Shown here piece after piece: positions 7,324-50,225 of a stretch of DNA of 64,000 nucleotides. Below the pieces are notes generated by a model. The model did no database searches. It worked only from the letters and a program-made list of their open reading frames with translations, and was not told the DNA's origin. Source of the DNA: Escherichia phage vB_EcoS-26175I. The position numbers and the translations under genes are program-made. The first letter of the stretch is position 1; every line of letters starts with the position of its first letter. The stretch lies in sequence record NC_133255.1; one strand, written 5' to 3'.

Positions 7324-8211
7324 TTACAGTAACTCTTGGTATGCTTTTTGATACGCCTCAGTGTTAGTAGGTGTATCTTTTGCAATAGCTATTAATTCAT
7401 CTGTGATCTGAATATTTGTATTATAACGTGTGTGGAACTCGTCAGGAATTTCTAAATATCTATTGATGAATGCTGCAGCAAGCGGTGAAGCTATACCCAT
7501 TTCTAGAACCCATCCAACTTGTTTCTCAAACTTCAGATAAGGAGATTCTGTTTGAGTAGTAGAAGTTTTGGTTTCCTTGACTTCTTTAGTTGGTAGAATT
7601 GGATTTTCATAACGTGCTTCTTCTGGAATAGCAGATCTACGTTCTTTATAAATATAAGTTTCTAGATCCGATGCTTTAGACCCTGAGTACACTGCAAAGA
7701 CACTTGCTTTACCTTGTGATGCTCTAATTGGAAGATAACAATTTGGATAGCTTCTTAAGGCATCATGGAACGGGCTTCCAGAATATTGATAACGATCTCC
7801 ATATAAATCATCAATATTCATTCGTTCATCTTCAAAGATGTGGAATGCACTAAATGAAGGTAGCGTAAAATATTCTGTCTCTAGCGCACGAATTAAGAAA
7901 CGATGTGCATATGCACTAATCTTAATAACTGTGTAAGGTTTTTCTCCTTCTTTAAGAGCGTTACCCTTAGATGTAACTTGATAACGTTTCCCAAAGAACT
8001 CTACTAAACGTTTCTCATTTAACGAGAGCGTAGAGTATAAACGTCCATTCAGTCCTAGCAAAGTATCAAACATAAATGCTAGCTTATCTTTTTCTTCTTG
8101 GGTTAGTTCAGGGAACGGTAGGATCTTAGCATTTGGAATATTATTTGTTTCCTTAGCTTTTCCTTTGCCAGCATTTTGTCTCAGTTTGTCTTTAAAATTA
8201 TATGTACTCAT
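7324..8211 (-). CDS. hypothetical early protein
   Basis: 295-aa ORF. Confidence 0.6.
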   Translation of the reverse strand: MSTYNFKDKLRQNAGKGKAKETNNIPNAKILPFPELTQEEKDKLAFMFDTLLGLNGRLYSTLSLNEKRLVEFFGKRYQVTSKGNALKEGEKPYTVIKISAYAHRFLIRALETEYFTLPSFSAFHIFEDERMNIDDLYGDRYQYSGSPFHDALRSYPNCYLPIRASQGKASVFAVYSGSKASDLETYIYKERRSAIPEEARYENPILPTKEVKETKTSTTQTESPYLKFEKQVGWVLEMGIASPLAAAFINRYLEIPDEFHTRYNTNIQITDELIAIAKDTPTNTEAYQKAYQELL

Positions 8212-27882: not shown

Positions 27883-28057
27883 GTAGATCTCAGGATTAAA
27901 TCATAAACTTCATTAGCGGATACTGGAAGTATGAGATTATACATCTTTTGGTCATACCTCTGACCATACTCTATAAACACATACTCTTTAGTTAATGTAT
28001 TAACAGCTAACCAGATATCAGTTATAGGAGTTTTCATCATGAGTTAATCCAATGTTT

Positions 28058-28138
28058 GGTAGGGATGGAGGGACTCGAACCCACACCCGAAGACTAGAAC
28101 CTAAATCTAGCGCGTCTGCCAATTTCGCCACATCCCCA
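28058..28138 (-). tRNA. tRNA-Leu (anticodon UAG)
   Basis: Hand-folded: anticodon stem CTAGA/TCTAG, loop TTTAGGT; 81 nt. Confidence 0.45.
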
Positions 28139-30956: not shown

Positions 30957-31034
30957 TTAATTGGTACACCTGCTGAGATTCAAACTCAGGATCTTCCGAT
31001 TAAGAGTCGGTTGCTTTAAGTCAACTAAGCTACA
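30957..31034 (-). tRNA. tRNA with loop CTCTTAA (anticodon CUU, Lys)
   Basis: Hand-folded: D-stem GCTT/AAGC, T-arm CTGAG-TTTGAAT-CTCAG. Confidence 0.45.
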
Positions 31035-31579
31035 GATGCATTTATATCTTTATAGGACTTACCAGCCAGTCTTGTATAGCGTTTTCGCAAACCATTATCT
31101 GACATGCCCAATTCTCTAGAAGCTCTAGACCATGAGTAATTTTTAACCCAGTACTCTATTTGTTCTACAGTAATTTCTTGTGGATTTTGACAGTGCTGTT
31201 TGCAGTAACTAGCTCTTTTAGCTATTTCTTTGTTGCAAATAGGACAGAAATTTTTATCTGAACTTAATCCACGTTCTTCTATAGTTTTGAGAATATGATC
31301 AGCTTTACTTCGTACAATCAGATTTTCAAGAGAGAAATTTAGTTTATTTGTATCATCATGATCTACTTCTAAGTCAGAACTCAAAGATGGTAGATCTTTG
31401 TATACTCTCGCTAATACTCTGTGTAATAGAAGATGTTTTGATTTTCCATTATGTTGAACAGTAAAGAAAGGATACCCAGAAGTATTAATCTGTATTGAAA
31501 GTATACGATTAACTTTAGTACTAAATACTTCCCCAGTCTCACTTATTAAGTATTCTGGATATTCGGGTATTTCTTTCAT
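31025..31579 (-). CDS. HNH homing endonuclease
   Basis: HRVLARVY...EVDHDDTNKLNFSLENL HNH core; 184 aa; inserted among tRNA genes. Confidence 0.7.
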   Translation of the reverse strand: MKEIPEYPEYLISETGEVFSTKVNRILSIQINTSGYPFFTVQHNGKSKHLLLHRVLARVYKDLPSLSSDLEVDHDDTNKLNFSLENLIVRSKADHILKTIEERGLSSDKNFCPICNKEIAKRASYCKQHCQNPQEITVEQIEYWVKNYSWSRASRELGMSDNGLRKRYTRLAGKSYKDINASVA

Positions 31580-31595
31580 TACTGTTCCTTATAAT

Positions 31596-31672
31596 TTGGC
31601 GCGACCGATGGGATTCGAACCCACATTCTCTCCCGTGACAGGGGAGTACCATTACCAAGCCAGCCCCGATCG
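31596..31672 (-). tRNA. tRNA-Asp (anticodon GUC)
   Basis: Hand-folded: perfect anticodon stem CTCCC/GGGAG, loop CTGTCAC. Confidence 0.6.
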
Positions 31673-31682
31673 CATAATTTGT

Positions 31683-31868
31683 TTACTCAGCTTTGAGTTT
31701 TTCGATAGCTTCCTCAACCTCTTTTAGAGCTTCACGACGCTCTACTTGACCTTGAAGTTCTTCAAGAAGTTCAGCTTTCAGAGCCTTAATAATATTACCA
31801 CGAACCTTAATATTATTAATCAGATTATCACGATCAGCTTCTAGTCGAGCAATTGCACGAGTTGTCAT
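31683..31868 (-). CDS. small coiled-coil protein
   Basis: 61-aa ORF. Confidence 0.4.
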   Translation of the reverse strand: MTTRAIARLEADRDNLINNIKVRGNIIKALKAELLEELQGQVERREALKEVEEAIEKLKAE

Positions 31869-31895: not shown

Positions 31896-31981
31896 TGGCG
31901 GGCCGTGTAGGAGTTGAACCTACTTTATCCTTGCGGATACGGATTAACAGTCCGGCGCTTAAACCGTTCAGCCAACGGCCC
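31896..31981 (-). tRNA. class II (long variable arm, Tyr-like body) tRNA with anticodon loop CTGTTAA (GUU)
   Basis: 86 nt; acceptor GGGCCGT/ACGGCCC; 3-bp D-stem; loop differs from the Tyr loop CTGTAAA at one position. Confidence 0.4.
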
Positions 31982-31988
31982 TAAAATT

Positions 31989-32064
31989 TGGACGACCGCA
32001 TGAGATTCGAACTCACATAAGGAGGTTTTGCAGGCCTCCGCCTAAGCCATTCAGCCAACGGTCG
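31989..32064 (-). tRNA. tRNA-Cys (anticodon GCA), discriminator U
   Basis: Hand-folded: loop CTGCAAA. Confidence 0.55.
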
Positions 32065-33053: not shown

Positions 33054-33134
33054 TGGTGGGGGATGGAGGACTCGAACCTCCGCGTGGTATACCCGGTCTA
33101 CAGCCAGGCGCCGTCGCCACTGAGCCAATCCCCC
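33054..33134 (-). tRNA. tRNA-Tyr (anticodon GUA)
   Basis: Acceptor GGGGGAT/ATCCCCC; anticodon arm CCTGG-CTGTAGA-CCGGG; 81 nt. Confidence 0.5.
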
Positions 33135-34049: not shown

Positions 34050-34126
34050 TGGTAGGGGTGGTGGGATTCGAACCCACAAAACCTGAATTTTAAGTCCAGT
34101 ACCTATGCCAATTCGATTACACCCCC
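34050..34126 (-). tRNA. class I tRNA with anticodon loop CTTAAAA (UAA, Leu-type anticodon on a short-variable-arm body)
   Basis: Acceptor GGGGGTG/CACCCCT, T-arm GTGGG-TTCGAAT-CCCAC, anticodon stem CTGGA/TTCAG. Confidence 0.4.
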
Positions 34127-39601: not shown

Positions 39602-40560
39602 ATTGATTCCTTTTGTTAGGTATTTTTAAGAACTCTCGTAAAAGTCCTTAAAGATACCCGGCGGTAGGTAGGGTCAGCCCCCTCAGATTAAGCTCTGCAG
39701 CCCTTCCGTCAGACAATATCTTCCAGTTTAAGTCAGGGTGACTTTGTGGTTATTCAGCTAAGGCTGATCGGCAGCTCTTAGGTCATGACTCCTCGTCGCT
39801 CTTTACTCACCGGCTAGGAAGTTATCTCGAGTTCTTCCTAGCTCTTTAGTCGTGCCATTAAGGTGCCTTCTAAGAGACTTACCTTTTCCCACTTTCGATT
39901 TGGGCATGTATCAGGTAAGGGTAGCCAAATCAGCATCCTAGTCCTACGGGGTCTCATCAAATTACATACCACCGCTTTTCGATATGTAATGCCCATGTCT
40001 ATACGGGAGAAGAAAATGGGCATCTTTCTCTTCGTCTGATAGCTTGAAAAACGACTCCTCATGGAGGAAAAACTTCACTATCTAGGCTAAAGCCTAAAGT
40101 TCTTCTTTAATCCGGCAAAGCAAAACCGTAGTATATACTTTTCAGGAATGGTTGGTTAGTCTGGAACCAACTACCGCGTGGTTTTGGCAGTGCACAGCTG
40201 CCTGCGATTGCTTCGCCATTAGAAGCACCAGTTATCCAACTCTTTCCGACCGTGGGACTCGAACCCACATCTTCAGGCGGTGAAGCCCTAATAATACCTA
40301 TTATACTAGGACGGCAGTGTTGTTACATAAGTGGTTTCGGCACCCCACTAACATAAACTAGAGAAGAGTTTACGAGATTTCGGGACAGCTCCCGAGTTTT
40401 CCGCAGATTTTCAGTTCCCTATCAATAGCAATAAGCGTTAGCTCGTAGCCTCTCTCAGAGTACTTACTAGTCTCCAACTCACCGACTCTATTCAGTGGAA
40501 TAGCTATCCTAGTAGGAGTCACTAAACTCACTCAGCGTAATCGGCTCGCTGTTCTCTAAT
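39602..40560 (-). ncRNA. about 1 kb promoter-driven ORF-poor, relatively GC-rich stretch containing a tRNA-like 3' element (T-arm GTGGG-TTCGAGT-CCCAC at 40252-40268); candidate structured non-coding RNA
   Basis: Early promoter immediately upstream; only a junk-like 74-aa ORF inside. Confidence 0.3.
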
Positions 40561-40607: not shown

Positions 40608-41042
40608 TTAATTAAATTCGCCAGCAACCTGAGCAGCAACTTTACCCTCGTAACGACCAGGAAACTCTTCCTTAATCGCTTTCATTAGCTGGCCTTTAGT
40701 GATTCCAGAATTTAATTTAACCAGTTCGGCAAAGTAATTACGAATCTGTACTTCTGATAACTGCTCTAACGCGTATTCGTATTCTAGACCCGCTAACAGA
40801 TCGAGATATTCAGCATCCGGAGTATATTCAATGTTTGCCTTTTCAGCAGCCGCCTGAGTATTTTCGATTGCTTTGAACTGCGATTTAATCCAGTTAGTAA
40901 ATTCTAACTTAGTTACGCAGTCCTTATCAATACGCTGCAAGTCACCTAAAATCGTACTTAGGTGCTTAACCGACACAGTGTCACCACGTTTGCGAGCAGC
41001 TTCAATCAACTCTCGCAGTACACGAATCATATTCGTACCCAT
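40608..41042 (-). CDS. hypothetical protein
   Basis: 144-aa ORF. Confidence 0.55.
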   Translation of the reverse strand: MGTNMIRVLRELIEAARKRGDTVSVKHLSTILGDLQRIDKDCVTKLEFTNWIKSQFKAIENTQAAAEKANIEYTPDAEYLDLLAGLEYEYALEQLSEVQIRNYFAELVKLNSGITKGQLMKAIKEEFPGRYEGKVAAQVAGEFN

Positions 41043-49080: not shown

Positions 49081-50225
49081 TAGAACATACCCTCAAATTC
49101 GTTGCCAAGATCTTTCAGAGTATCAGCAGAGGTTTCTGTGACTTGACCTACGCGGTAGGCTGCACCAATCTGAATCTCTTGCGGAGCAGGTTGTAGAGAA
49201 GTAGTATCCAACCAGTTCATGATCCACGGAATCGGATTCTTAGTAATTACAGGTAAGTGGCTTGGCCATTCTACACCAATGTGCATAAATGCGTTACGTC
49301 CTACAAAGTAAAGGTATTCTTCAAGCAGTTCTGCGTTCAAACCAATCAGACTACGGCCTTTAAAGATAAAGTGACCCCATTCAATCTCAGTTTTCAGAGT
49401 TTTTAGGAGTTGTGCTGGTGCTTTAGCTAATGCTTCATCTACCAGATCTTTATCAAACTGCTGGAACATAATCTGGATGATAGCTTTAGACATTTGAGTA
49501 TGTAGAGCTTCATCTTTAGCGATTAATTGCAGGTTCTTAGCAATACCTTGCAGAATATCGTTCTCTGCTAGAGCAAAGGTACATGCAAAGGATGCGTAGA
49601 ACTGCATTGCTTCCAGACCGTAGATTGCAAAGTAAGCATCTAACAGCTTAGCCTGAGTTTCACGTTTAACTTCAGGGAACTCAGTTTCTGGATAAGTATT
49701 ATCACCACGATGATCACGTACTGCAAGGAAATACTGACCTAACAGATACAATTCATCAAACAGTTCAACAGAATCTGCGATACGTGCAAATGCTTCTTGG
49801 TTTTTAGTTACAGAATCAATAAATTCTGCTGGATCAGTCAGAACGTTACGAATAATGTTACTATATGCACGGCTATGCAGATCTTCGAAGTAGCTCCACT
49901 GCTTGAGCATACCCTCCAATTCAGGACGGCTTACAAGCGGCATAATAGCTGCTTCAGGAGCACGGCTAATGAAAGAATCTGTTTGAGTCTGCCATGCTAA
50001 GTTCAGGAGAGTAATTTCCTGAATATCACGCGGGAGGTTTGGCCATTGTTTCTTATCGGCTTCCAGACTGATTTCAGTTTCAGTCCAGAATTGAGAGCGA
50101 GCTAATAACGCCAGCCTTTCTAGCTCTGGATGAGCTACTCGTACATAATCTGCAATACCAAGAGAATCACCGAGAAATAGATCTTTATTGGTATGATCCC
50201 AGTTTAAGTTAAGTAAAGTTGTCAT
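49080..50225 (-). CDS. nrdB: ribonucleotide reductase small subunit (class Ia beta)
   Basis: Ferritin-like E..H ligand motifs (KDEALH); 381 aa. Confidence 0.8.
   Translation of the reverse strand: MTTLLNLNWDHTNKDLFLGDSLGIADYVRVAHPELERLALLARSQFWTETEISLEADKKQWPNLPRDIQEITLLNLAWQTQTDSFISRAPEAAIMPLVSRPELEGMLKQWSYFEDLHSRAYSNIIRNVLTDPAEFIDSVTKNQEAFARIADSVELFDELYLLGQYFLAVRDHRGDNTYPETEFPEVKRETQAKLLDAYFAIYGLEAMQFYASFACTFALAENDILQGIAKNLQLIAKDEALHTQMSKAIIQIMFQQFDKDLVDEALAKAPAQLLKTLKTEIEWGHFIFKGRSLIGLNAELLEEYLYFVGRNAFMHIGVEWPSHLPVITKNPIPWIMNWLDTTSLQPAPQEIQIGAAYRVGQVTETSADTLKDLGNEFEGMF

What the first reader, a model, noticed from the sequence alone, without database searches (positions are those of the whole stretch)
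31896..31981. Class II (Tyr-like body) tRNA whose anticodon loop reads GUU
An 86-nt tRNA with a long variable arm and 3-bp D-stem has anticodon loop CUGUUAA, one nucleotide away from the tyrosine loop CUGUAAA. GUU is an Asn anticodon and class II bodies are not used for Asn in bacteria. A separate GUA tRNA of 81 nt is at 33054-33134. This could be an unusual Asn tRNA, a Tyr-derived variant, or a misfold on my part.
Basis: seen in the sequence. Interest (0 to 1): 0.5.

Follow-up and report, generated by a model that had tools for sequence, protein, structure and literature searches.

The report
Phage asparagine tRNA with extra arm
This T5-like phage's only asparagine tRNA carries a conserved extra hairpin arm that textbooks reserve for leucine, serine and bacterial tyrosine tRNAs, and the same design is common in phages but almost absent from cellular genomes.

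Summary
Window 31896-31981 (- strand) is an 86-nt tRNA with anticodon GUU, a 3-bp D stem and a 15-nt variable arm (4-bp stem, GCAA loop, 3-nt spacer). ARAGORN and Rfam place the anticodon in the same register.

It is not a Tyr derivative. Its anticodon arm matches E. coli tRNAAsn at 16 of 17 positions. The discriminator is G73, against A73 in all 51 phage tRNATyr. It is the only Asn tRNA in a phage set covering all 20 amino acids.

It belongs to a large family of 82-91-nt Asn tRNAs. 587 GenBank phage records from unrelated families hold relatives, and more than 120 IMG/VR stretches match. About 16 of 185,579 species genomes do, mostly within tRNA arrays. All four variable-arm pairs covary, and the D arm has the class II form (13:22 unpaired).

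Best reading: a working Asn tRNA with class II architecture, charged through GUU plus G73. What the extra arm does is not shown. I infer, at roughly one in three, that it changes how host tRNA-targeting nucleases see the tRNA. I found no paper describing this architecture.

The parts
31896..31981 (-). tRNA-Asn(GUU) gene, 86 nt, class II architecture, CCA encoded
   Evidence: ARAGORN. Rfam RF00005 56.9 bits. 100% identical to the annotated tRNA-Asn of Escherichia phage vB_EcoS-26175II-V.
31946..31948 (-). anticodon GUU (tRNA nt 34-36), inside loop CUGUUAA
   Evidence: The + strand reads AAC at 31946-31948. ARAGORN puts the anticodon at position 34. The Rfam alignment uses the same register.
31939..31955 (-). 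anticodon stem-loop CCGGACUGUUAAUCCGU (tRNA nt 27-43); C27/U43 is unpaired
   Evidence: 16 of 17 positions identical to E. coli asnT. Pairs 29-41, 30-40 and 31-39 are invariant in 40 relatives.
31924..31938 (-). variable arm (tRNA nt 44-58): stem AUCC/GGAU, GCAA tetraloop, 3-nt spacer AAA
   Evidence: ARAGORN bracket structure. All 4 stem pairs show changes on both sides: 100% of cells paired in 18 sequences and 94.6% in 40.
31957..31972 (-). D arm (tRNA nt 10-25): 3-bp stem GCU/AGC with G13 and A22 unpaired, 10-nt loop
   Evidence: 13:22 can pair in only 34% of 92 long-arm Asn tRNAs, against 91% of 22 class I Asn tRNAs and 79% of 870 other class I tRNAs.
31899..31899 (-). discriminator G73
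   Evidence: G in 89 of 92 relatives.
31989..32064 (-). tRNA-Cys(GCA), 7 nt upstream in the same cluster; its D-arm region is the closest match to that of the Asn tRNA
31683..31868 (-). 61-aa ORF (DUF7337) between tRNA-Asn and tRNA-Asp; context only
31597..31673 (-). tRNA-Asp(GUC), next tRNA downstream; context only

Best explanation
The locus encodes the phage's own asparagine tRNA. It is one member of a widespread phage family in which tRNAAsn(GUU) is built on a class II scaffold.

What the sequences show:
- a normal acceptor stem, T arm and anticodon arm;
- an anticodon arm nearly identical to that of host tRNAAsn;
- discriminator G73;
- a selectively maintained variable-arm hairpin (3-5 bp, usually capped by a GNRA loop, followed by 3-4 unpaired bases);
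- a D arm remodelled to the class II form (3 bp, 13:22 unpaired).

What I infer from the published Asn identity rules: the host AsnRS charges it through GUU plus G73, and it reads AAC and AAU during infection. Where hosts lack AsnRS, the non-discriminating AspRS and GatCAB would do this job; U1-A72 in 58 of 92 relatives fits that route.

What I infer with much less confidence (about 0.35): the extra arm leaves decoding and charging intact but changes how other proteins read the tRNA's shape, above all host tRNA-targeting defence nucleases. On this view the phage keeps a host-like anticodon arm and still escapes. Phage T5 takes a different route at the same locus, with a class I tRNAAsn whose anticodon stem is heavily mutated.

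The confidence given below refers to the first part only: a functional, Asn-decoding class II-type tRNA that belongs to a phage family.
For: Real tRNA in the stated register.

Asn identity:
- The anticodon arm matches E. coli asnT at 16 of 17 positions.
- G73 occurs in 89 of 92 distinct relatives.
- The identity review states that the anticodon plus G73 transplant Asn identity into another tRNA (PMC9976931).

Needed as the Asn tRNA:
- The window's 31 tRNAs cover all 20 amino acids, and this is the only Asn tRNA.
- The other 50 kb of the genome hold no tRNA.
- 34 other viral stretches with at least 15 tRNAs hold only the long-arm Asn form.
- In T5, where a class I tRNAAsn is present, the equivalent slot holds only the tRNA-like 'rna3'.

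Selection on the arm:
- All 4 variable-stem pairs covary, and 0 of 500 shuffles reach the observed score.
- The D arm has co-adapted.

Spread:
- 587 GenBank phage records across Demerecviridae, Straboviridae and Stephanstirmvirinae hold relatives.
- More than 120 IMG/VR stretches match.
- No complete E. coli genome holds a relative.

For the defence idea:
- AriB of PARIS cleaves E. coli tRNAAsn at 40|41, a predicted model has it contacting D-loop positions 16-17, and T5 tRNAAsn helps rescue (PMC12409363).
- This tRNA keeps the host UAAUCC at that site, while the T5 allele does not.
- In the T5-like phage SP15, the variable loop of tRNATyr decides escape from Retron-Eco7 (PMC12673091).
Against: No aminoacylation, expression or cleavage data exist for any long-arm Asn tRNA, so charging by AsnRS is inferred from identity rules worked out on class I tRNAs.

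From my own recollection of the AspRS complex, not tested here: class IIb synthetases approach tRNA from the variable-loop side. If so, a long arm could hinder AsnRS.

This window's tRNA also carries several serine-type features: G1-C72, G2-C71, G73 and a long arm.

For the defence idea specifically:
- Nothing links the arm to any nuclease.
- The AriB recognition sequence is intact.
- Bas34, a T5 relative with its own tRNAAsn, still needed T5 tRNAAsn for rescue. I could not determine which allele Bas34 carries.
- Once the core is remodelled, the arm could be kept for structural reasons alone.
Confidence: 0.8

Rival explanations
1. The arm has no function of its own. It arose as an insertion in one or a few ancestral phage tRNAAsn genes. 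Once the D arm adapted to it, it became structurally indispensable. It then spread with the gene through exchange of tRNA cassettes between phages. The tRNA is simply an Asn tRNA.
For: - Covariation shows the hairpin is kept, but that is also expected if it is needed only for folding.
- The D arm is class II-like, which fits entrenchment.
- HNH homing endonuclease genes sit among the tRNA genes.
- Nearly identical variable and T arms occur in a T5-like and a T4-like phage, which shows gene exchange.
- GNRA loops are equally common in ordinary phage tRNASer arms.
Against: - The design is found in very diverse acceptor-stem backgrounds and host phyla yet is almost absent from cellular genomes. 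This points to a phage-specific advantage.
- Other class I isotypes in phages also carry such arms, and many phage tRNALeu lack them. That suggests recurrent remodelling rather than a single accident.
Confidence: 0.3
2. The tRNA is charged with serine by SerRS, which reads the long arm and G73 and ignores the anticodon. Serine would then be inserted at Asn codons, either as deliberate mistranslation or through a dual identity.
For: - This window's tRNA has G1-C72, G2-C71, G73, C11-G24 and a long arm.
- Allo-tRNAs and nematode nev-tRNAs are precedents.
Against: - The arm geometry differs from tRNASer of the same loci. Asn arms have 0-1 unpaired nt, a 3-4-bp stem, a tetraloop and 3-4 unpaired nt. 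Ser arms have 1 unpaired nt, a 5-7-bp stem, a tetraloop and 1 unpaired nt.
- The 2-71 pair is not conserved even among the closest relatives: GC 9, AU 5, CG 3, UA 1.
- 58 of 92 relatives have U1-A72, whereas 70 of 76 tRNASer have G1-C72.
- It is the only Asn tRNA in many complete phage sets.
Confidence: 0.06
3. It is a tRNATyr gene whose anticodon mutated from GUA to GUU. It is either still charged with Tyr or is a decaying copy.
For: - The loop differs from CUGUAAA by one base.
- The arm geometry resembles that of tRNATyr.
- G34 and U35 are retained.
Against: - A73 is present in 51 of 51 phage tRNATyr, and the review calls it critical. Here the base is G73, as in 89 of 92 relatives.
- The anticodon arm is 94% identical to E. 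coli asnT and 71% to tyrT; D-arm identity to Tyr tRNAs is 55-58%.
- GUU is found in all 587 BLAST relatives that carry an annotation.
- A separate tRNATyr is present.
Confidence: 0.02
4. It is mainly a decoy. It would be a tRNA-shaped competitor that soaks up a host tRNA nuclease or modifying enzyme, rather than a substrate for translation.
For: - Belukhina et al. raise the possibility that overexpressed viral tRNAs inhibit AriB by competing with host tRNAs.
- The host-identical anticodon arm would make a good bait.
Against: - The full Asn identity set, a perfect acceptor stem and an encoded CCA are conserved.
- It is the sole Asn tRNA in sets that cover all 20 amino acids.
- A pure decoy would not need G73.
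Confidence: 0.07

Closest known systems
E. coli tRNAAsn(GUU) (asnT, NC_000913 2044549-2044624)
   Same: Anticodon GUU, loop CUGUUAA, anticodon arm identical at 16 of 17 positions, discriminator G73.
   Different: The host tRNA is class I: 76 nt, a 5-nt variable loop AUGUC, U1-A72 and a different D arm (63% identity). Acceptor-stem identity is only 14%.
Phage T5 tRNAAsn (T5t17, NC_005859 33952-34029)
   Same: Same isotype, the same tRNA cluster next to tRNA-Cys and tRNA-Asp, G73 and an encoded CCA.
   Different: It is class I (78 nt, variable loop GGGUU). Its anticodon arm GCAUCUUGUUAAGUUGA is 47% identical to this one and has a weakened stem. It arrived alongside ORF T5.069, and the slot of the long-arm gene holds 'rna3'.
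Bacterial class II tRNATyr (E. coli tyrT/V; phage tRNATyr)
   Same: A long variable arm with a short stem and about 3 unpaired bases on its 3' side, G34-U35, and G1-C72 in this window.
   Different: Tyr tRNAs have A73 and A36. There is no special sequence similarity in the D arm or acceptor stem.
Bacterial tRNASer
   Same: G73, a long arm often capped by GAAA, and G1-C72/G2-C71 in this window.
   Different: Ser arms have 5-7-bp stems and 1 unpaired base on the 3' side. Ser anticodons are absent here, and the acceptor pairs are not conserved among relatives.
Nematode nev-tRNAs and bacterial allo-tRNAs
   Same: Both are class II-type bodies that carry anticodons of class I amino acids (PMC4033280; PMC7609411).
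   Different: Those are charged according to their body (Leu; Ser or Ala) and so recode. Here the anticodon-dependent Asn identity set is conserved, so no recoding is expected. Allo-tRNAs also have 8/4 or 9/3 acceptor/T stems, whereas this tRNA is 7/5.
SP15 (T5-like phage) tRNATyr with an altered variable loop
   Same: A T5-like phage tRNA in which the variable region, not the anticodon loop, decides escape from a tRNA-cleaving defence (PMC12673091).
   Different: That is an ordinary class II isotype with a longer loop, and it has been tested experimentally. The Asn case is a gain of an arm by a class I isotype and is untested.

Membership tests
tRNA (Rfam RF00005) | Cloverleaf with a 7-bp acceptor stem, D, anticodon and T arms, a 7-nt anticodon loop and a GGUUC-type T loop | tested here: met
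   56.9 bits against a gathering score of 29, full model 1-71. ARAGORN structure. 98.6% of cells paired over 24 pairs in 40 relatives.
tRNAAsn (bacterial asparagine identity) | Anticodon G34 U35 U36 | tested here: met
   Identity rule from PMC9976931.
tRNAAsn (bacterial asparagine identity) | Discriminator G73 | tested here: met
   89 of 92 relatives.
tRNAAsn (bacterial asparagine identity) | Aminoacylation with Asn by AsnRS, or by the AspRS/GatCAB route | not testable with these tools
   Needs a charging assay or analysis of the charged tRNA.
tRNAAsn (canonical architecture) | Class I body: 4-5-nt variable loop and a 4-bp D stem with 13:22 paired | tested here: not met
   15-nt variable arm, 3-bp D stem, G13 and A22 unpaired.
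Class II tRNA architecture | Variable region of at least 10 nt that forms a stem-loop | tested here: met
Class II tRNA architecture | 3-bp D stem with 13:22 not Watson-Crick | tested here: met
   G13/A22 in 41 of 92 relatives, and only 34% can pair. By comparison, G13/A22 occurs in 48 of 71 long-arm tRNALeu.
Class II tRNA architecture | Isotype is Leu, Ser, bacterial Tyr or Sec | tested here: not met
   The anticodon is GUU.
Bacterial tRNATyr | Discriminator A73 | tested here: not met
   G73 here. A73 in 51 of 51 phage tRNATyr.
Bacterial tRNATyr | Anticodon GUA | tested here: not met
   The anticodon is GUU.
Bacterial tRNASer | Long variable arm with the Ser-type length and orientation (5-7-bp stem, 1 unpaired nt on the 3' side) | tested here: not met
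   4-bp stem with 3 unpaired nt here.
Bacterial tRNASer | G1-C72, G2-C71 and G73 | tested here: inconclusive
   All present in this window. However, 2-71 varies among close relatives and 58 of 92 relatives have U1-A72.
Phage anti-defence tRNAs (nuclease-resistant variants such as T5 tRNALys and SP15 tRNATyr) | Resists a host tRNA nuclease that cleaves the host isoacceptor | not testable with these tools
   There is only context. AriB targets E. coli tRNAAsn, and the cleavage-site sequence is unchanged here.

The most novel reading that the evidence does not exclude
Remodelling of the variable arm may be a general, so far unremarked phage counter-defence strategy. Phages would add a class II-type arm to class I isotypes (Asn most widely; also Thr, Cys, Lys, Ile-UAU, Glu and Trp). 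They would shorten or delete it in class II isotypes (Leu, Tyr). The result would be that shape-reading host tRNA nucleases miss the phage copy while synthetases still accept it. Class II tRNAAsn would then be the commonest example. It would explain how a phage tRNA with a host-identical anticodon arm can survive nucleases such as AriB.
Probability: 0.3. Interest if true: 0.8.

Novelty: new variant of a known kind. Interest (0 to 1): 0.6.

Why it matters
Textbook tRNA biology limits long variable arms to Leu, Ser, bacterial Tyr and Sec. The known exceptions, nev-tRNAs and allo-tRNAs, recode.

Here a class I isotype has adopted the class II scaffold while keeping its own identity set. It does so across hundreds of cultured phages from unrelated families and many uncultured ones, yet almost never in cells.

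This offers three things:
- a natural test of whether AsnRS, a class IIb synthetase, tolerates a long arm;
- a ready-made orthogonal-looking scaffold for tRNA engineering;
- a concrete hypothesis for the current work on phage tRNAs versus tRNA-cleaving immunity (PARIS, retrons/Septu, OLD, PrrC), which has so far looked at anticodon stem-loops and, for tRNATyr, the variable loop.

It also matters for annotation, because isotype-specific models flag such tRNAs as inconsistent. An example is Sf14 tRNA-Asn (PMC12482277).

Tried and rejected
- BLAST of the tRNA against 5,426 complete E. coli genomes found no match at E <= 0.01. There is therefore no host or prophage copy, but this search gave no host comparison either. 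I fetched asnT, serU and tyrT/V by coordinates instead.
- My intended unbiased control pattern for tRNA-Lys was mis-specified. N{14,18} selects expanded variable loops, so it retrieved a separate family of long-loop tRNALys rather than a neutral sample.
The only result is that long-arm genes sit more often in clusters of at least 10 tRNAs: 51 of 120 against 32 of 120.
- The first covariance-model alignment (A2) mixed in other isotypes and was discarded. A stricter search gave A3.
- I could not determine which tRNAAsn allele phage Bas34 carries. The paper's supplements are not held, and the BASEL paper text does not name Bas34. That allele would have been an indirect test of AriB resistance.
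- Promoter and terminator scans around the gene gave nothing above shuffled expectation.
- The T5.081 homologue, annotated 'tRNA amidotransferase' in T5, has no Pfam match. I dropped it as a possible link to Asn-tRNA formation.
- Literature searches for any description of a long-arm phage tRNAAsn found none. Targeted reading of seven papers found none either.
- Whether T5 'rna3' descends from the long-arm gene stays open. The flanks match, but the body aligns poorly.

Full report
**The observation**

The minus strand of window 31896-31981 reads GGGCCGUUGGCUGAACGGUUUAAGCGCCGGACUGUUAAUCCGUAUCCGCAAGGAUAAAGUAGGUUCAACUCCUACACGGCCCGCCA. ARAGORN calls it tRNA-Asn(gtt), 86 nt, one of 31 tRNA genes on the minus strand between 25.1 and 40.3 kb. 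Rfam's tRNA model scores it at 56.9 bits against a gathering score of 29. That alignment uses the same anticodon register and puts a 12-nt insertion in the variable region.

ARAGORN's structure has a 7-bp acceptor stem and a 3-bp D stem (GCU/AGC) with a 10-nt loop. The anticodon stem is CGGA/UCCG plus an unpaired C27/U43, and the loop is CUGUUAA. The variable arm is AUCC-GCAA-GGAU followed by AAA. A 5-bp T stem, G73 and an encoded CCA complete it. The 81-nt tRNA-Tyr(gta) at 33054-33134 is also real.

**Where the window comes from**

The region is 100% identical to Escherichia phage vB_EcoS-26175III and IV, which are T5-like phages (Demerecviridae, Epseptimavirus) isolated on E. coli. The window starts at position 49875 of MK907270.1. 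The preceding 50 kb of that genome contain no tRNA gene. The window's tRNAs cover all 20 amino acids, and this gene is the only one with an Asn anticodon.

**It is one member of a large family**

BLAST of the 86 nt against 50,697 GenBank phage records finds relatives covering at least 80% of the query in 585 of 587 matching records. Representative copies were fetched and re-predicted. They are 83-86 nt long, carry GUU and come from three unrelated phage families:

- Demerecviridae: Epseptimavirus STG2 and Priunavirus PSTCR5.
- Straboviridae: Karamvirus CC31, Moonvirus Merlin, Winklervirus Vettismorki and the T4-like Klebsiella phage Roth04.
- Stephanstirmvirinae: Phapecoctavirus tuntematon.

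A T5-like copy (STG2) and a T4-like copy (Vettismorki) share identical variable and T arms. This implies that the gene moves between unrelated phages.

These stretches, the GenBank copies and the genome-collection hits described below together gave 92 distinct long-arm tRNA-Asn(GUU) sequences of 82-91 nt, with very diverse acceptor stems.

The same pattern hit only 69 stretches among the representative genomes of 185,579 bacterial and archaeal species. ARAGORN called 17 of these long Asn tRNAs. One is a class I gene with an 11-nt tandem duplication. Most of the rest lie in arrays of 7-36 tRNA genes within 8 kb, for example in Micromonospora and Verrucosispora. No complete E. coli genome contains a relative.

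**The extra arm is under selection**

In an 18-sequence alignment, all four variable-stem pairs change on both sides and every cell is paired. No shuffle out of 500 reaches the observed covariation score, and shifted registers drop to 33-47% paired. In 40 distinct sequences aligned with a covariance model, the four pairs again all covary, for example UA 16, AU 11, GC 11 and CG 1 at one pair, with 94.6% of cells paired.

Across the 92 sequences the variable region is 12-19 nt long. The usual layout is 0-1 unpaired base, a 3-4-bp stem, a tetraloop and 3-4 unpaired bases. The commonest loops are GAAA (29), GCAA (7), GUAA (5) and GGAA (3).

The D arm has changed along with the variable arm. Positions 13 and 22 can pair in only 34% of long-arm Asn tRNAs, and G13/A22 occurs in 41 of 92. 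The figure is 91% for class I Asn tRNAs from the same loci and 79% for 870 other class I tRNAs. G13/A22 is also the commonest state in long-arm tRNALeu, at 48 of 71. This is therefore a class II core and not a class I tRNA with a passenger insertion.

**Which amino acid**

The 17-nt anticodon arm matches E. coli asnT at 16 positions. It is 71% identical to E. coli tyrT and 65% to serU. The discriminator is G in 89 of 92 family members.

The tRNA identity review states that the anticodon and G73 transplant asparagine identity into tRNALys and that both are important in E. coli (PMC9976931). It also states that A73 and U35 are critical for tyrosine identity. All 51 phage tRNATyr in my loci have A73.

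Fifty-eight of the 92 have U1-A72 and 26 start with UCC, as E. coli asnT does. UCC starts 0 of 52 Tyr, 0 of 78 Ser and 0 of 122 Leu tRNAs.

The D-arm region of the window's tRNA is closest to the neighbouring phage tRNA-Cys at 84% identity. It is 55-58% identical to Tyr tRNAs and 30-63% to Ser tRNAs.

The body is therefore not Tyr-derived. The only Tyr-like trait is the arm geometry of a short stem with 3 unpaired bases on the 3' side. tRNASer of the same loci differ, with 5-7-bp stems and 1 unpaired base.

The serine alternative deserves mention. This window's tRNA does have G1-C72, G2-C71, G73 and a long arm, and serine identity rests mainly on the arm. Three things argue against it: the arm geometry, the variable 2-71 pair among close relatives and the U1-A72 majority. 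Charging by AsnRS remains an inference, because nobody has tested it.

**Comparison with phage T5**

T5 carries a 78-nt class I tRNAAsn whose anticodon arm, GCAUCUUGUUAAGUUGA, is 47% identical to this one and has a weakened stem. In T5, that gene and ORF T5.069 lie between tRNA-Cys and a 73-nt 'putative tRNA-like RNA' called rna3. rna3 occupies exactly the slot of the long-arm gene and has the same flanks.

About 136 GenBank records carry the T5-type allele at 95% identity or more. T5-like phages therefore use two alternative designs at one locus. One Asn tRNA appears to be enough.

**What the arm might do**

Nothing tested here settles this. The context is suggestive.

- The PARIS nuclease AriB cleaves E. 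coli tRNAAsn(GUU) between positions 40 and 41, next to a UAAU motif. A predicted complex with tRNALys places its second subunit on D-loop positions 16-17. T5 tRNAAsn contributes to rescue, and the authors say the rescuing T5 tRNAs carry substitutions at or near the cleavage site (PMC12409363).
- The long-arm allele keeps the host sequence UAAUCC there. If it resists, the cause must lie elsewhere in the molecule, and the arm emerges directly after the cleaved strand.
- In the T5-like phage SP15, deleting or swapping the variable loop of phage tRNATyr abolishes escape from Retron-Eco7 (PMC12673091). Variable-region remodelling is thus a demonstrated escape route in this phage group.
- An earlier survey found anticodon-loop mutations in three of the four phage tRNA types targeted by colicin E5 (PMC10264068). 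Long-arm Asn tRNAs keep the unmutated loop CUGUUAA.

Against the idea, Bas34 has its own tRNAAsn yet still needed T5 tRNAAsn for rescue, and I could not establish which allele it carries. I put the defence reading at about one in three. A structurally entrenched but otherwise neutral arm is about equally likely.

**Literature**

Seven full-text searches found no description of a long variable arm in a phage tRNAAsn. Neither did targeted reading of the main phage-tRNA and non-canonical-tRNA papers. Among the papers listed, none that uses the phrase 'phage tRNA' also contains 'long variable'.

One study noted, without explanation, that the tRNA-Asn-GTT of Shigella phage Sf14 scores best with a different isotype model (PMC12482277). 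The genes themselves are routinely annotated as tRNA-Asn. What is new is the architecture and its distribution, not the gene. Subscription-only literature could not be searched.

**Verdict**

This is a genuine and probably functional asparagine tRNA on a class II scaffold. It represents a widespread phage family that is nearly confined to phages and has not been described in the literature I could search. Its role beyond decoding is open.

Noticed in passing
window 40243-40316 (-): A 74-nt tRNA-like gene that ARAGORN calls tRNA-SeC(tca). It has an 8-bp acceptor stem with mismatches and scores only 33 bits in Rfam. The T5 counterpart is read as 'Ser(act)'. It may be a degenerate tRNA or a UGA-reading oddity.
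   Followed up: partly
window 33054-33134 (-): The phage tRNA-Tyr is only 81 nt long and has a 10-nt variable region, UAUACCACGC. The variable region is 15 nt in T5 and 13 nt in E. coli tyrT. Retron-Eco7 PtuAB cuts E. coli tRNATyr in the variable loop, and the SP15 tRNATyr loop decides escape (PMC12673091). This shortened arm may therefore be an escape variant.
   Followed up: partly
window 34050-34126 (-) and 28057-28137 (-): tRNA-Leu(UAA) is 77 nt long with a class I-like 5-nt variable loop, and tRNA-Leu(UAG) has only 9 nt there. In the fetched phage loci, 51 of 122 distinct tRNALeu lack a long arm. Phages therefore lose arms as well as gain them.
   Followed up: partly
IMG/VR loci, e.g. L026 5224-5314, L031 1697-1792, L064 7444-7538, L154 5454-5546: tRNA-Ile(UAU) genes of 91-96 nt whose variable arm carries a recurring AGAUUA/AGAUAA loop motif. 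Long-arm versions of Thr(UGU), Cys, Trp, Glu, Met, Gly and Asp tRNAs occur in the same set.
   Followed up: no
IMG/VR loci L200-L267, e.g. L201 near 7998-8031: A family of 82-86-nt phage tRNA-Lys(UUU). Its variable loop is 11-12 nt long, A-rich and apparently unpaired (UAUACAACAUC type). The acceptor stem starts GGAC, and the discriminator is U in most copies and A in some. It was found in 68 viral stretches by an accidentally mis-specified pattern. In those loci tRNAAsn is class I in 22 of 23 cases.
   Followed up: partly
L010 (phage T5) 9878-9950 (-): T5 'rna3', annotated as a putative tRNA-like RNA, lies exactly where the long-arm tRNAAsn lies in this window and in STG2, and has the same flanks. 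It may be a decayed copy of that gene.
   Followed up: partly
window 40608-41042 (-): A 144-aa ORF that corresponds by length and position to T5.081, which the T5 record annotates as 'tRNA amidotransferase'. It has no Pfam match at E <= 0.01, so that name is unsupported.
   Followed up: partly
window 31025-31579 (-): A NUMOD4 + HNH_3 homing-endonuclease ORF directly beside tRNA-Asp. Together with the HNH genes in the T5 tRNA region, it marks this cluster as a hotspot for cassette exchange.
   Followed up: no
L135, L136, L146, L190 (Verrucosispora and Micromonospora chromosomes): Arrays of 23-36 tRNA genes within 8 kb of actinobacterial chromosomes include an 89-90-nt long-arm tRNAAsn with U1-A72. 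Whether these arrays are prophage-borne was not checked.
   Followed up: no
L009 (Providencia phage PSTCR6) 296-368: A 73-nt tRNA-Asn whose 5' half matches the long-arm family, including the class II-type D arm. It has a short variable loop and a poorly pairing acceptor 3' strand, and it sits next to a homing endonuclease gene. It looks like a damaged derivative.
   Followed up: no
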